A stretch of DNA of 27,571 nt, from IMG/VR virus record IMGVR_UViG_2617271072_000003. One strand, 5' to 3'. The stretch comes from a virus (Duplodnaviria > Heunggongvirae > Uroviricota > Caudoviricetes). Numbering within the stretch: position 1 is the stretch's first letter; each line of letters begins with the position of its first letter. This document shows positions 645 to 15,852 of this stretch, piece by piece. The notes under the pieces were generated by a model, which saw nothing but the letters and a program-made list of their open reading frames with translations, searched no databases and was not told the origin of the DNA. A program made the position numbers and the translations under genes.

Positions 645-1010
645 ATGCGTGATATTCAGATGGTTCTTGAGCGTTGGGGTGCATGGGCGGCGAGTGACAG
701 TTCAGGAGTAGACTATTCGCCTATAGCTGCTGGGTTTAAGGGACTTCTTCCCTATACAAGCAAAACACGTCAGGCTTGTTCAGATAGTGATGCATTAATT
801 ATTGAAGGTTGTCTTGCTCGTCTAAAGCAAAAAAGGCCAGACGAACATTCGCTTCTTGTTGCCCATTACCTATACGGTATCTCTAAAAGAAAGCTCGCCA
901 AAGCTCGTAAAAAGGATGAGAAACTAATACGCATTGAGATACAGATGGCTGAGGGGTTTATTGAAGGCTGTCTCTCAATGCTTGATCTTTGTTTGGAAAT
1001 GGACCAATAG
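645..1010 (+). CDS. Q: late-gene antiterminator Q (phage 21/82 / DLP12 QuuD type)
   Basis: ORF track 630..1010 starts at TTG; ATG at 645 (MRDIQMVLERWGAWAA...) with GGAG about 9 nt upstream is the likelier start. Recognised as Q-family antiterminator, directly after rusA/ylcG. Confidence 0.85.
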   Translation: MRDIQMVLERWGAWAASDSSGVDYSPIAAGFKGLLPYTSKTRQACSDSDALIIEGCLARLKQKRPDEHSLLVAHYLYGISKRKLAKARKKDEKLIRIEIQMAEGFIEGCLSMLDLCLEMDQ

Positions 1011-1026
1011 ACTACCAGAATAGCAA

Positions 1027-1058
1027 CTGCCGCTCAGCTTTGCGGATCGGCAGTTTTT
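1027..1058 (+). terminator. hairpin plus T-run immediately downstream of Q (possible intrinsic terminator)
   Basis: ctgccg (1027-1032) pairs with cggcag (1048-1053) around a 15-nt loop, followed by TTTTT (1054-1058). Confidence 0.35.
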
Positions 1059-1456
1059 GATGGTGTAATGTTACGCGCAGATGTTTCAAGTATAGATTCC
1101 CTTCCGATTGATACCAAAATTTCGATTGTTCTTGCTTTAGCCTGCATCAATGTTGATTTTATTTCAGGACTTAAGTGGTCAGATCGTAACTGCTTCTCAA
1201 TCTCAGCCAAATCACGCTTGCATTTTGCTCTTTTGGCTGCGTCTTCTGGAGATTCGAAACCATGCCTCGAAATGAACCAATTCATGACGTAAGTTAAAGT
1301 TGCCGCAACACCCGGTACTAATGCGTAGGCTACAGTTCGCCACACGCTATTAGGGTCGGTTAAAATCGCGCTAACAAGAACACTTAAAATTGCTCCCCAA
1401 CCACCAGTTGAAAGGGTAGCTTTTCCTGTGCTTAGACCTTTAGTTTGAGAATTCAT
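1034..1456 (-). CDS. hypothetical protein, predicted membrane protein (cassette gene C)
   Basis: 140-aa ORF; two hydrophobic segments (GGWGAILSVLVSAILT, VAYALVPGVAATLTYVMNWFI) then a charged C-terminal half; start overlaps the upstream stop (ATGA); AT-rich by eye. Confidence 0.55.
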   Translation of the reverse strand: MNSQTKGLSTGKATLSTGGWGAILSVLVSAILTDPNSVWRTVAYALVPGVAATLTYVMNWFISRHGFESPEDAAKRAKCKRDLAEIEKQLRSDHLSPEIKSTLMQAKARTIEILVSIGRESILETSARNITPSKTADPQS

Positions 1457-1722
1457 TTTCGTTTTGAATTCTCCGCAATTGCCTCATCAATGAGGGTTGT
1501 TAGCATTTTTCCCTTTTTACTTGGAACTTTTATTACTAGCGTTTTGGTCACTCCGGAATCTTCATCGTGATATCGGAATTCGAAGACTTTTGTAGGGAAT
1601 AGTCGACGCCAAAGCAAGGCTGACGCTGAATAGCAAAAACGACTAAAGGCAGGGATGATCATTATCACCCCTATCCAGAAGATCAGTTGTGCTATCTGCA
1701 TGTTTAGTGTCACTTTTGTCAA
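1453..1722 (-). CDS. hypothetical small membrane protein (cassette gene B)
   Basis: 89-aa ORF from TTG at 1722 (alternative ATG at 1701, MQIAQLIFWIGVIMIIPAF...); N-terminal hydrophobic helix; same frame as the upstream ORF, separated only by TGA plus one codon. Confidence 0.45.
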   Translation of the reverse strand: MTKVTLNMQIAQLIFWIGVIMIIPAFSRFCYSASALLWRRLFPTKVFEFRYHDEDSGVTKTLVIKVPSKKGKMLTTLIDEAIAENSKRK

Positions 1723-1725
1723 GCC

Positions 1726-2664
1726 TCAGCAGGGCGTTTTTCGTTTTACTTTGGTTATAGCATACTTGGTTGTGGCATTTCGCGCAGTGAAAGTTTTTAT
1801 AGTTTTTAGCTCAACAACAAACAAATCTTCTTTTGTAAAACTGATGATTCCGTTTTGAACTTGGTGTATAAACAACTGATCTTCAAAGGTAACAGCATGC
1901 TCTTCGCCTAAATAATCGATTCTCCAACCCTTTGTACCCTCGAAGTTGATCTGTACGAATCTAACATTGACTTCTTCTACAGACTCTTCTTTTTCAAGTA
2001 GTGTGCCTCTAGGCAGCGGTTTGATCTCTTCGGTTTCACTTCCTTCAAGACGAACGACTTCTTCGCCTTCATCATTCAGCACCTTAAATACTGCTCCTTG
2101 TTTGCCGTCTAATGGTGCACGAACTACATTCACAAGGGCATCACGGACTTCTGGATCTGTTACTAACTTAGCCACTGAGTCATGGCAAACAATTTCTTCC
2201 CCTTCAAGCTCAAGAACAGATTCTTCTGTTCCTGCCCGTTTTGTTACCGAAATTACTTTCTTGCTGCCCAGTTGGCGGATTAGTGATAATGCTGGAGCTC
2301 CAATAGTAGCCCCGGCTATCCCTGTTAGGCCAATCACTTTTGCTACGTCGACGGCATGAGGAACAAGCTCCATCATCGTATAGGATACGCCGAGTGATCC
2401 CGCTTCAGCTGGATTAGTAACCATTAACTTAACGGTTTGTTGGCCGTCATTAAGTCTTTTATCAGCTGCTGATATTAAATCTGCCATCGAACCTATGGAA
2501 ATGCTTAATGTTTTGGCATCAATTTTATGCTGTGCTAATTCATTATCCTCTGCATCGTAGAAGATCTGAAAAGAAGTTGTTTTAGTCACTCTTTGCTCGC
2601 TATGTCTTGATTTTTTTCCATAAAATACCTTTTTTGGTGTAAAAAACATTATCGCGGTCCGCAA
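1726..2664 (-). CDS. hypothetical protein (cassette gene A), no family recognised
   Basis: 312-aa ORF from TTG 2664 (ATG at 2649 gives 307 aa); acidic Glu-rich central linker, Gly/Ala-rich segment GLTGIAGATIGAPALSLIRQLG; AT-rich relative to flanking phage genes. Confidence 0.6.
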   Translation of the reverse strand: MRTAIMFFTPKKVFYGKKSRHSEQRVTKTTSFQIFYDAEDNELAQHKIDAKTLSISIGSMADLISAADKRLNDGQQTVKLMVTNPAEAGSLGVSYTMMELVPHAVDVAKVIGLTGIAGATIGAPALSLIRQLGSKKVISVTKRAGTEESVLELEGEEIVCHDSVAKLVTDPEVRDALVNVVRAPLDGKQGAVFKVLNDEGEEVVRLEGSETEEIKPLPRGTLLEKEESVEEVNVRFVQINFEGTKGWRIDYLGEEHAVTFEDQLFIHQVQNGIISFTKEDLFVVELKTIKTFTARNATTKYAITKVKRKTPC

Positions 2665-2713
2665 AAAAATTGCGTTACTGTGTTAAGAGTGATTACTTCG
2701 TCACACAGCTTAA

Positions 2714-2737
2714 ACCCGCCGTCGAGCGGGTTTTTTT
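2714..2737 (+). terminator. intrinsic terminator (+ orientation), candidate tR'-like element
   Basis: acccgc (2714-2719) / loop cgtcga / gcgggt (2726-2731) followed by T7 (2731-2737). Confidence 0.5.
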
Positions 2738-2861
2738 ATACCTGTAAACCTGGTGCAGTACGGTAAACACGCTGGTGGTCGTGAATACTGACTTTTTTAT
2801 CTTGCTGGCTTTTTAGACAAGAGTTATTGGTATGTCATGTTAACCATGAAGGTAAAAAGAC

Positions 2862-3056
2862 ATGCTAAAACAGCAAGATATGACAGAAACGGCGAAAGTT
2901 GTTTTTAATGAATTAAACGGCAAACCGGCAACAGTCGGGGAGATAGCACAAAACACATACCTTTCACGCGAACGCTGTCAGTTAATACTGACCCAGCTGG
3001 TTATGGCGGGGCTGGCAGATTACCAGTTCGGCTGTTACAGACGCCTTCAGCAATGA
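2862..3056 (+). CDS. hypothetical small protein, possible helix-turn-helix
   Basis: 64-aa ORF with ATG and GAAGG about 8 nt upstream; segment ATVGEIAQNTYLSRERCQLILTQLVMAGLAD looks HTH-like; directly upstream of the methyltransferase. Confidence 0.45.
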   Translation: MLKQQDMTETAKVVFNELNGKPATVGEIAQNTYLSRERCQLILTQLVMAGLADYQFGCYRRLQQ

Positions 3057-3205: not shown

Positions 3206-4258
3206 ATGAAGAATACTGTAAAAATAAACAGTGTTGATTTAATCAACGCTGATTGCCTGCATTTTATTCAGTCCCTGCCTGATGACTCCATTGATCTGAT
3301 TGTTACCGATCCGCCGTACTTCAAAGTGAAGCCCAACGGCTGGGACAATCAGTGGAAAGGGGACGAAGATTACCTGAAGTGGCTGGACCACTGTCTGGCC
3401 CAGTTCTGGCGGGTACTGAAACCAGCCGGAAGCCTTTACCTGTTCTGTGGACATCGCCTGGCATCTGATATCGAGATCATGATGCGTGAACGTTTCAACG
3501 TTCTTAACCATATCATCTGGGCGAAGCCGTCCGGACGATGGAACGGGTGTAATAAAGAAAGCCTGCGGGCATATTTCCCCGCTACAGAGCGCGTTCTGTT
3601 TGCTGAACATTACCAGGGGCCATATCGCGGCAAAAGTGACGATTATGCGGCAAAAGAAAGGGAACTCAAACAGCACATAATGGCACCGCTGATTTCGTAT
3701 TTCAGGGATGCTCGTGCCGAACTGGGTATAACGGCAAAACAGATTGCCGAAGCCACTGGTAAGAAAAATATGGTTTCCCACTGGTTTGGTGCCAGTCAGT
3801 GGCAGTTGCCGAATGAGGCTGACTACCGGAAGTTGCAGGCACTGTTTTCCCGTATAGCGGCAGAGAAATTTCAGGAACAACAACTGGAACAACCACACCA
3901 CCAGCTGGTGGCATCTTATGATTCACTGAATCGCAAATATTCTGAATTGCTGGATGAGTTTAAAACTCTCCGGCGCTATTTCTCCGTATCAGTTTCCGTG
4001 CCTTATACCGACGTCTGGACGCATAAACCCGTTCAGTTCTACCCGGGTAAACATCCGTGTGAGAAGCCTGCGGATATGCTCCGGCAAATAATCAGTGCCA
4101 GTAGTCGACAAGGCGATCTGGTTGCTGATTTCTTTATGGGATCCGGTTCCACAATAAAAGCAGCAATGGCGCTGGGGCGTCGGGCCTTAGGTGTTGAGCT
4201 TGAGTCAGAGCGGTTTAACCAGACAGTGAAAGAGATAAACGAGCTGGTGGGGAAATAA
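3206..4258 (+). CDS. DNA N6-adenine methyltransferase (beta-class, orphan)
   Basis: 350-aa ORF; catalytic DPPY motif near the N-terminus (IVTDPPYF) and AdoMet-binding FxGxG near the C-terminus (DFFMGSGST); no adjacent restriction endonuclease ORF. Confidence 0.85.
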
Positions 4259-7630: not shown

Positions 7631-11321
<3,691 letters not shown>

Positions 11322-15457: not shown

Positions 15458-15852
15458 AACATACTGAACTCCGTGCAGCCGTACTGGATGCACTGGAGAA
15501 GCATGACACCGGGGCGACGTTTTTTTTGATGGTCCGCCCCGCTGTTTTTGATGAGGCGGATTTTCCGGCAGTTGCCGTTTATCTCACCGGCGCTGAATAC
15601 ACGGGCGAAGAGCTGGACAGCGATACCTGGCAGGCGGAGCTGCATATCGAAGTTTTCCTGCCTGCTCAGGTGCCGGATTCAGAGCTGGATGCGTGGATGG
15701 AGTCCCGGATTTATCCGGTGATGAGCGATATCCCGGCACCGTCAGATTTGATCACCAGTATGGTGGCCAGTGGCTATGACTACCGGCGCGACGATGATGC
15801 GGGCCTGTGGAGTTCTGCCGATCTGACTTATGTCATTACCTATGAAATGTGA
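15454..15852 (+). CDS. U: tail terminator protein gpU
   Basis: 132-aa ORF overlapping the Z stop; lambda U-like; contains a T8 run at 15520-15527. Confidence 0.9.

What the first reader, a model, noticed from the sequence alone, without database searches (positions are those of the whole stretch)
1720..1728. Cassette ORFs A and B are in the same frame, separated only by a TGA and one codon
On the minus strand, A ends ...KRKTPC-TGA (1726-1728), followed by one codon (GGC) and then B's TTG start at 1722, in the same frame. B has no convincing Shine-Dalgarno and only a TTG start (next ATG at 1701). This could be a single ~400-aa protein with a C-terminal TM helix split by a nonsense mutation or read through at TGA, or two genuinely separate genes; same frame occurs by chance one time in three.
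Basis: seen in the sequence. Interest (0 to 1): 0.5.

Follow-up and report, generated by a model that had tools for sequence, protein, structure and literature searches.

The report
Two separate genes, not one split
The in-frame junction between two prophage genes comes from one extra base in a run of A's, most likely a sequencing error, and relatives show two ordinary neighbouring genes of a conserved three-gene operon.

Summary
The sequence facts are correct. On the minus strand, ORF A ends ...KRKTPC-TGA (1728-1726), followed by GGC and then TTG (1722), all in one frame.

This arrangement depends on a five-A run at 1741-1737.
- All 31 complete E. coli genomes that carry the cassette have one base fewer in this 151-nt stretch. 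All 7 I inspected have four A's.
- All 22 E. coli-type IMG/VR loci show the A tail that four A's give.
- With four A's, A ends KRKRPAEA-TGA (1721-1719), in a different frame from B.
- Across the whole window, the nearest genome differs by 1 substitution and 18 indel events, mostly in homopolymers. These indels break the portal, small-terminase, tail and tape-measure genes. The extra A is therefore most likely an assembly error.

A and B are separate genes.
- A homologues are mostly 287-295 aa (longest 327), and family profiles end where A ends.
- B is a conserved gene of about 86 aa for a membrane protein, with dN/dS about 0.12.
- B starts at GTG 1713, 10 nt after a GAGG, not at TTG 1722.
- All 53 IMG/VR loci with an A homologue have the A, B, C order. 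The A and B frames coincide in 17 of 51, exactly the chance rate.

The split-protein and readthrough readings are refuted. Separately, the A-B-C module is an uncharacterised candidate defence cassette (PADLOC PDC-S42).

The parts
1737..1741 (-). Run of five A's (five T's on the + strand). No relative has the fifth base, and it alone puts A and B in one frame.
   Evidence: Searches show a single-base gap here against L001-L004. In one search, all 31 genomes align as 150 nt to the 151-nt query. Searches show A4 in all 7 genomes inspected.
1726..2589 (-). Gene A as read in the window. It starts at GTG 2589 and its tail is frameshifted to ...KRKTPC-TGA. With A4 the gene would be 289 aa, ending KRKRPAEA-TGA at 1721-1719. 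It belongs to the LAPAL-motif / PDC-S42 / phrog_3243 family.
   Evidence: Family hits: NF053583 at 199.9 bits, PDC-S42 at E 4.4e-32, phrog_3243. PGAP annotates the 870-nt CDS WP_021549515.1. Alignment A1 shows the conserved tail.
1726..1728 (-). TGA that ends A in the window only. In relatives these bases lie across the codons GCT GAG, and they overlap B's Shine-Dalgarno sequence.
1719..1721 (-). TGA that is A's true stop codon in every relative of the E. coli type.
1724..1727 (-). GAGG, the probable Shine-Dalgarno sequence of B, 10 nt upstream of GTG 1713. It lies inside A's last codons (AEA) and is conserved in L020 and L019.
   Evidence: The function is inferred from position and conservation only.
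1720..1722 (-). TTG, the start of the mechanical ORF B. It is not the real start.
1453..1713 (-). Gene B, 86 aa. It has an N-terminal transmembrane helix and a conserved LLWR[RK]LFPT motif. PGAP does not annotate it in E. coli RefSeq genomes.
   Evidence: Homologues are 78-95 aa and stand alone. Gene callers start it at MTLN..., equivalent to GTG 1713. Alignment and hydropathy are. dN/dS is 0.11-0.13. Searches show the annotation gap.
1034..1456 (-). Gene C, 140 aa, with two predicted transmembrane helices and a C-terminal helical region. Its ATG overlaps B's TGA (ATGA).
   Evidence: It is present by HMM in 51 of 53 loci, and a counterpart is visible in L076.

Best explanation
A and B are two separate, adjacent genes of a conserved three-gene operon (A, then B, then C) that sits on the minus strand of a lambdoid prophage between the Q antiterminator gene and the late/lysis region.

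In the true sequence, A (289 aa) ends ...KRKRPAEA-TGA. Five bases later B (86 aa) starts at GTG. B's GAGG ribosome-binding site is embedded in A's last codons, and B's stop overlaps C's start (ATGA). Ribosomes therefore terminate on A and initiate afresh, or re-initiate, on B. This step is inferred from the anatomy.

The window carries one extra A in a homopolymer 10 nt before the stop. That base shifts A's last codons to ...KRKTPC-TGA and happens to put A into B's frame. The extra base is most likely an assembly or sequencing error, because the whole window is full of homopolymer-length discrepancies. No fused A-B protein is made.
For: 1. The extra base is unique to the window. All 31 E. coli genomes align as 150 nt to the 151-nt query. 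All 7 inspected have A4. All 22 E. coli-type IMG/VR loci have the tail KRKRPAE[A/V], a TGA stop, a 4-5 nt gap, a GTG start, and a different frame for B.
2. The window shows an error signature. Against the nearest genome there are 1 substitution and 18 gap openings over 27.5 kb, most of them in A/T homopolymers. They frameshift or alter DUF1398, nohD, portal, Z, U and the tape-measure gene as well as A.
3. A's tail R-[KH]-R is nearly invariant in the family, and the window departs from it.
4. A homologues do not extend into B. Most are 287-295 aa (a few are truncated or carry extra residues, up to 327 aa) and none is near 400 aa. The profiles NF053583 (292 positions) and PDC-S42 end at A's end.
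5. B is a real gene in its own right. There are 77 stand-alone clusters of 60-95 aa. The start is conserved at the GTG 1713 position. dN/dS is 0.11-0.13.
6. The A-B-C order is conserved in all 53 IMG/VR loci and in Serratia, Klebsiella, Edwardsiella and Dickeya genomes, and in metagenome loci down to 30-37% identity.
7. The A-B gap is -1 to 15 nt, the stop codons vary (TGA, TAA, TAG), and there are two in-frame stops in 11 of the 17 same-frame loci. The frames coincide in 17 of 51 loci, the chance rate.
Against: - I could not see reads, so the extra A could be a genuine private mutation of this strain. That would change A's last five residues. It would not change the conclusion that A and B are separate genes.
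- Translational coupling or re-initiation at the A/B junction is inferred from spacing and the GAGG. It has not been shown.
- No expression data were available.
Confidence: 0.9

Rival explanations
1. The extra A is real. It is a private frameshift mutation in this strain's prophage that shortens and alters A's C-terminal tail (KRKRPAEA becomes KRKTPC). A and B remain separate genes.
For: The bases are in the window as given. Prophages do decay. The change touches only the last residues of A and leaves B's GAGG and GTG intact, so it could be tolerated.
Against: The window differs from its nearest relative by 18 indel events and only 1 substitution, and most of the indels lie in homopolymers. 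The indels include frameshifts in the portal, small-terminase and tape-measure genes. Real decay would also accumulate substitutions. None of the 31 genomes or 22 IMG/VR loci shares the A5 state.
Confidence: 0.08
2. A and B are one protein of about 400 aa, either split by a recent nonsense mutation at 1728-1726 or produced by programmed readthrough or recoding of that TGA.
For: In the window only, a single TGA and one codon separate the two ORFs in one frame. In a few other lineages (L011, L014) one stop and 3-4 codons separate them in frame.
Against: - No A homologue extends into B (86 clusters, longest 327 aa).
- No B homologue is longer than 95 aa.
- In the consensus E. coli sequence the TGA at 1728-1726 is out of A's frame. 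A fused product would then need both a frameshift and a readthrough.
- Same-frame junctions occur at exactly the chance rate. They use different stop codons, often two of them.
- B has its own conserved start and GAGG.
Confidence: 0.01

Closest known systems
Tightly packed, translationally coupled bacterial and phage operon junctions (stop and start a few bases apart or overlapping, for example ATGA)
   Same: The A stop is followed by a 5-nt gap and B's GTG, with B's GAGG inside A's last codons. B's stop overlaps C's start as ATGA. Across homologues the gaps run from -1 to 15 nt.
   Different: Nothing unusual. Coupling itself is not demonstrated, and GTG starts are confined to the E. coli-type clade.
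NCBIfam NF053583 'LAPAL motif-containing putative phage structural protein', PADLOC PDC-S42 and phrog_3243 (gene A)
   Same: A matches all three profiles end to end.
   Different: PADLOC lists PDC-S42 as a single-gene candidate, and NCBIfam calls the family 'structural'. Here A always comes with two small membrane-protein genes, B and C. It sits in the Q/late-region accessory slot on the opposite strand, not among the structural genes. I found no published test of function.
Lambda RexA/RexB-type prophage exclusion (a cytoplasmic sensor plus a small membrane effector expressed from the prophage)
   Same: The resemblance is in layout only: a soluble protein of about 290 aa, small multi-pass membrane protein(s) of about 140 aa, carried by a lambdoid prophage, and oriented against late transcription.
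   Different: A, B and C give no significant Pfam hit at all at E <= 1, so nothing ties them by sequence to RexA or RexB. The module has three genes rather than two. A's only fold match is an OB-like barrel. This is a working analogy and not a claim of membership.

Membership tests
Programmed stop-codon readthrough or recoding (including selenocysteine) | An in-frame stop at a conserved position between the two coding parts in homologues | tested here: not met
   A and B share a frame in only 17 of 51 loci. The stop identity varies (TGA, TAA, TAG), and many loci have two in-frame stops. In all E. coli-type relatives the two genes are in different frames.
Programmed stop-codon readthrough or recoding (including selenocysteine) | The downstream part lacks its own initiation signals | tested here: not met
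   B has a conserved start (GTG or ATG) at the same alignment position. In the E. coli-type clade a GAGG lies 8-10 nt upstream.
Gene split by a nonsense or frameshift mutation (pseudogene) | Intact homologues encode the two parts as one ORF | tested here: not met
   The 86 A clusters are at most 327 aa, most of them 287-295 aa. The 77 B clusters are at most 95 aa. All 53 IMG/VR loci have separate ORFs.
NCBIfam NF053583 LAPAL_fam (gene A) | Whole-protein score above the curated cut-off (60 bits), with end-to-end coverage | tested here: met
   The score is 199.9 bits. Residues 32-310 of the mechanical ORF match profile positions 1-291 of 292.
PADLOC PDC-S42 candidate defence gene (gene A) | A match to a PDC-S42 HMM | tested here: met
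   PDLC05015 matches at E 4.4e-32, profile positions 3-290 of 302.
PADLOC PDC-S42 candidate defence gene (gene A) | Demonstrated protection against phage | not testable with these tools
   No paper in the library mentions PDC-S42 or the LAPAL motif.
Translationally coupled operon junction | The stop of the upstream gene lies within a few nt of, or overlaps, the start of the downstream gene, and this is conserved | tested here: met
   The A-B gap is -1 to 15 nt in 51 loci, and B and C overlap.
Translationally coupled operon junction | Translation of the downstream gene depends on translation of the upstream gene | not testable with these tools
   This needs reporter fusions with premature stops placed in A.
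RexA/RexB exclusion system | Sequence homology to RexA or RexB | tested here: not met
   A and B have no Pfam hit at E <= 1. C has only a sub-threshold hit to CCDC-167.

The most novel reading that the evidence does not exclude
The finding itself is ordinary. The cassette it sits in may still be an undescribed three-gene, prophage-borne anti-phage (exclusion or abortive-infection) module. In that reading, a soluble protein of about 290 aa with a C-terminal OB-like barrel (A, PADLOC's 'single-gene' candidate PDC-S42) acts together with two small membrane proteins: B (86 aa, overlooked by PGAP) and C (140 aa). The module occupies a variable cargo slot between Q and the late promoter/terminator region of lambdoid phages across Enterobacterales.
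Probability: 0.35. Interest if true: 0.45.

Novelty: not a real feature. Interest (0 to 1): 0.08.

Why it matters
As a candidate for recoding or a split gene, it does not matter: the junction is an ordinary operon junction seen through a probable one-base assembly error.

Three practical points follow.
1. This window carries many homopolymer-length discrepancies, so any frame-based observation in it should first be checked against relatives.
2. A conserved 86-aa membrane-protein gene (B) is missing from RefSeq annotation of E. coli prophages.
3. PDC-S42 should probably be treated as a three-gene module if anyone tests it for phage defence.

Tried and rejected
- **Pfam:** no significant domain for A, B or C.
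- **PDB sequence search with the A profile:** nothing below E 0.1.
- **Literature:** searches for 'PDC-S42' and 'LAPAL motif' found no paper, and a wider PADLOC/PDC search found nothing specific.
- **The search for related loci in genome contigs with the A alignment:** 600 pattern matches but no confirmed relative. I used IMG/VR instead.
- **The minus-strand cassette of phage cdtI at the same site:** tested as a possible divergent version of A and C, and found to be unrelated. Its large protein is DUF6731.
- **The 288-aa gene upstream of A in L014:** tested as a possible paralogue of A, and it is not one.
- **An 11-codon upstream ORF that overlaps A's GTG start:** considered as a conserved leader peptide, but it is not conserved outside the E. 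coli type.
- **Programmed -1 frameshifting in the A4 consensus sequence as a route to a fusion protein:** rejected. In B's frame the TGA at 1728-1726 lies two codons upstream of TTG 1722, so a frameshift into B's frame upstream of it would terminate there.
- **Simple sigma-70 scan:** no convincing promoter for the cassette.

Full report
**Setting**

The window is the late half of a lambdoid E. coli prophage. On the + strand it carries rusA (60-422), ylcG, an antiterminator Q gene (642-1010), a small ORF (2862-3056), a DNA methyltransferase (3206-4258), and then lysis, head and tail genes. Three ORFs lie on the minus strand between Q and a + strand hairpin followed by a T-run at 2712-2733:
- A, mechanical ORF 2664-1726
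- B, 1722-1453
- C, 1456-1034

**The observation**

The minus strand reads ...GTA AAA CGA AAA ACG CCC TGC TGA GGC TTG ACA AAA GTG ACA CTA AAC ATG... The TGA is at 1728-1726, GGC at 1725-1723, TTG at 1722-1720 and ATG at 1701, all in one frame.

**The frame match rests on one base**

I aligned window 1000-2850 to three nearly identical E. coli chromosomes. There were no substitutions in two of them and only indels in homopolymer runs. One of these is a missing base in the A run at 1741-1737, which is A5 in the window and A4 in the relatives.

A 151-nt query centred on the site found 31 complete E. coli genomes. Every one aligned as 150 nt. I read the site directly in seven of them, including the 98%-identical allele found in STEC, poultry and musk-deer strains, and all have A4.

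With A4, A reads ...AAA CGA AAA CGC CCT GCT GAG GCT TGA. It ends KRKRPAEA with its stop at window 1721-1719. PGAP annotates exactly this 870-nt CDS (WP_021549515.1, WP_021570437.1). In that sequence the TGA at 1728-1726 is not in A's frame, and B lies in a different frame from A.

**The extra base is probably an error**

Over the full 27,571 bases, the window differs from its nearest relative (strain fEC.1) by 1 substitution and 18 gap openings covering 27 gapped columns. Most of the gaps lie in A or T runs, and one is a 9-base insertion that lengthens a T run at 9980-9989.

I mapped that genome's annotation onto the window. The indels frameshift or alter A, a DUF1398 gene, nohD (small terminase), the portal gene, tail genes Z and U, and the tape-measure gene. 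The other 27 of the 34 genes compared keep their length and reading frame.

An 18:1 ratio of indels to substitutions concentrated in homopolymers is the pattern of homopolymer-length sequencing error, not of mutational decay. I could not see reads, so this remains an inference at about 85-90% confidence.

**A does not extend into B**

- The corrected A found 86 protein clusters. Most are 287-295 aa; a few are truncated (down to 163 aa) or carry extra residues, up to 327 aa. None is near 400 aa.
- NCBIfam NF053583 ('LAPAL motif-containing putative phage structural protein', 292 positions) matches A from profile position 1 to 291.
- PADLOC PDC-S42 matches positions 3-290 of 302.
- phrog_3243 matches positions 8-284 of 293.
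- In a 33-sequence alignment the family ends in a basic tail, V-x-R-[KH]-R. The window's KRKTPC departs from a nearly invariant arginine there.

**B is a gene of its own**

Loci encoding A homologues at 76-37% identity (Serratia, Klebsiella, Edwardsiella, Dickeya, metagenomes) all show the same layout: A, then an ORF of 80-88 aa, then an overlapping ORF of 131-144 aa.

The B proteins align along their length. They share an N-terminal hydrophobic helix and an LLWR[RK]LFPT motif. A profile search found 77 clusters, all stand-alone proteins of 60-95 aa. Several carry locus tags adjacent to the A gene of the same genome.

The E. coli-type B proteins are called as 86 aa beginning MTLN, MALN or MSMN. 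That is the position of GTG 1713 in the window, not TTG 1722. The ATG at 1701 is not conserved, because residue 5 is L in relatives.

In the E. coli-type clade a GAGG sits 8-10 nt upstream of this GTG, inside A's last codons (GCT GAG GCx, encoding AEA). Pairwise dN/dS for B is 0.11-0.13 at dS 0.7-1.9, so it is under purifying selection as a protein. PGAP does not annotate B in the E. coli genomes I looked at and leaves a 262-nt gap there.

**Survey of the junction**

In 53 IMG/VR loci with an A homologue, A always ends at 284-295 aa. Fifty-one loci have B and C immediately downstream by HMM (B at E <= 5e-30, C at E <= 1e-45).

The other two loci have A at 30-32% identity. In the one I opened (L076), A is followed by an 81-aa ORF with a hydrophobic N-terminus and an overlapping 126-aa ORF. 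Both loci give weak C hits.

Across the 51 loci:
- The A-B gap is -1 to 15 nt.
- B's start is GTG in the 22 E. coli-type loci and ATG elsewhere.
- A's stop is TGA, TAA or TAG.
- A and B share a frame in 17 of 51 loci (33%). In 11 of those 17, two in-frame stops lie between them.
- All 22 E. coli-type loci have KRKRPAE[A/V]-TGA, a 4-5 nt gap, a GTG start and different frames.

The same-frame relation is therefore exactly what chance gives, and the junction carries no conserved recoding signal.

**Mechanism of the junction (inferred)**

Ribosomes terminate at A's stop. B is then initiated 5 nt downstream at GTG 1713, using the GAGG embedded in A's tail, either de novo or by re-initiation. B's TGA overlaps C's ATG (ATGA at 1456-1453), the classic arrangement for coupling. 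The window's extra A lies upstream of all these signals, so B and C would be made normally even if the base were real. Only A's last five residues would change.

**What the cassette may be**

This goes beyond the finding and is low-confidence.
- A has no Pfam domain and no sequence relative in the PDB.
- The strand order of residues 199-285 (three strands, a helix, two strands) fits an OB barrel. This is my reading.
- A glycine- and alanine-rich hydrophobic stretch at about residues 80-105 holds the 'LAPAL' motif, and the model has its lowest confidence there (residues 92-95).
- B has one predicted transmembrane helix. C has two, plus a helical tail.
- The module lies in the accessory slot between Q and the late region. 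Other phages carry unrelated cargo at the same place: a DUF6731 gene pair in phage cdtI, other small ORFs in phage Ayreon, and a Fic/Phd pair next to the module in L020.
- In L014 the module sits elsewhere, near an integrase and next to a protein with a weak match to PADLOC 2TM_IV.

Together with the PADLOC candidate status, this suggests a prophage-expressed exclusion or abortive-infection module in which A senses a signal and B and C act at the membrane, broadly as RexA/RexB do. There is no homology to Rex and no experimental evidence.

**Verdict**

The sequence facts in the finding are correct, but the feature is not real biology. It is an ordinary operon junction seen through a single, probably erroneous, homopolymer base. 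Interest is low.

Noticed in passing
window 2629, 2663-2664, 2793, 6321, 7500, 9980-9989, 10445, 13031, 15004, 15247, 15526-15534, 19310, 19816, 26644, 26804: The window differs from the nearest E. coli genome by 18 indel events and 1 substitution, and most of the indels are in A/T homopolymers. They frameshift or alter DUF1398, nohD, portal, Z, U and the tape-measure gene. Any frame-based observation in this window is suspect.
   Followed up: yes
window 1453-1713 (-): Gene B is a conserved 86-aa membrane protein under purifying selection. It is not annotated in any of the E. coli RefSeq genomes I inspected (a 262-nt gap between C and A). Other gene callers do call it.
   Followed up: yes
window 1010-2860; L017 (phage cdtI) 549-1937; L018 (phage Ayreon) 1300-1950; L020 156-835: The interval between the Q gene and the conserved terminator / small-ORF / methyltransferase block is a variable cargo slot. 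Different phages carry A-B-C, a DUF6731 gene pair, other small ORFs, or Fic/Phd next to A-B-C.
   Followed up: partly
window 2652-2664 (-) and 2712-2733 (+): A short hairpin followed by a T-run (TGCGGACCGCG...TTTTT) just upstream of A recurs in several lineages (L001, L011, L019, L021, with a variant in L020). A strong hairpin with a T-run on the + strand lies 50 nt away and is annotated 'terminator' in phage Ayreon. Together they may be the late promoter / tR' unit, which would place the cassette between Q and its site of action. Not resolved.
   Followed up: partly
window 2586-2621 (-): An 11-codon upstream ORF (MEKNQDIASKE) has its TGA overlapping A's GTG start (GTGA), and an AGG lies 6 nt before its ATG. 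It is present in the E. coli type but not conserved in other lineages.
   Followed up: partly
L014 3122-3988: In a metagenomic locus with A at 37% identity, the module is not at the Q locus. It sits near an integrase, directly downstream of a 288-aa protein with a weak match to PADLOC 2TM_IV (E 1.7e-8).
   Followed up: partly
[not shown]
   Followed up: partly
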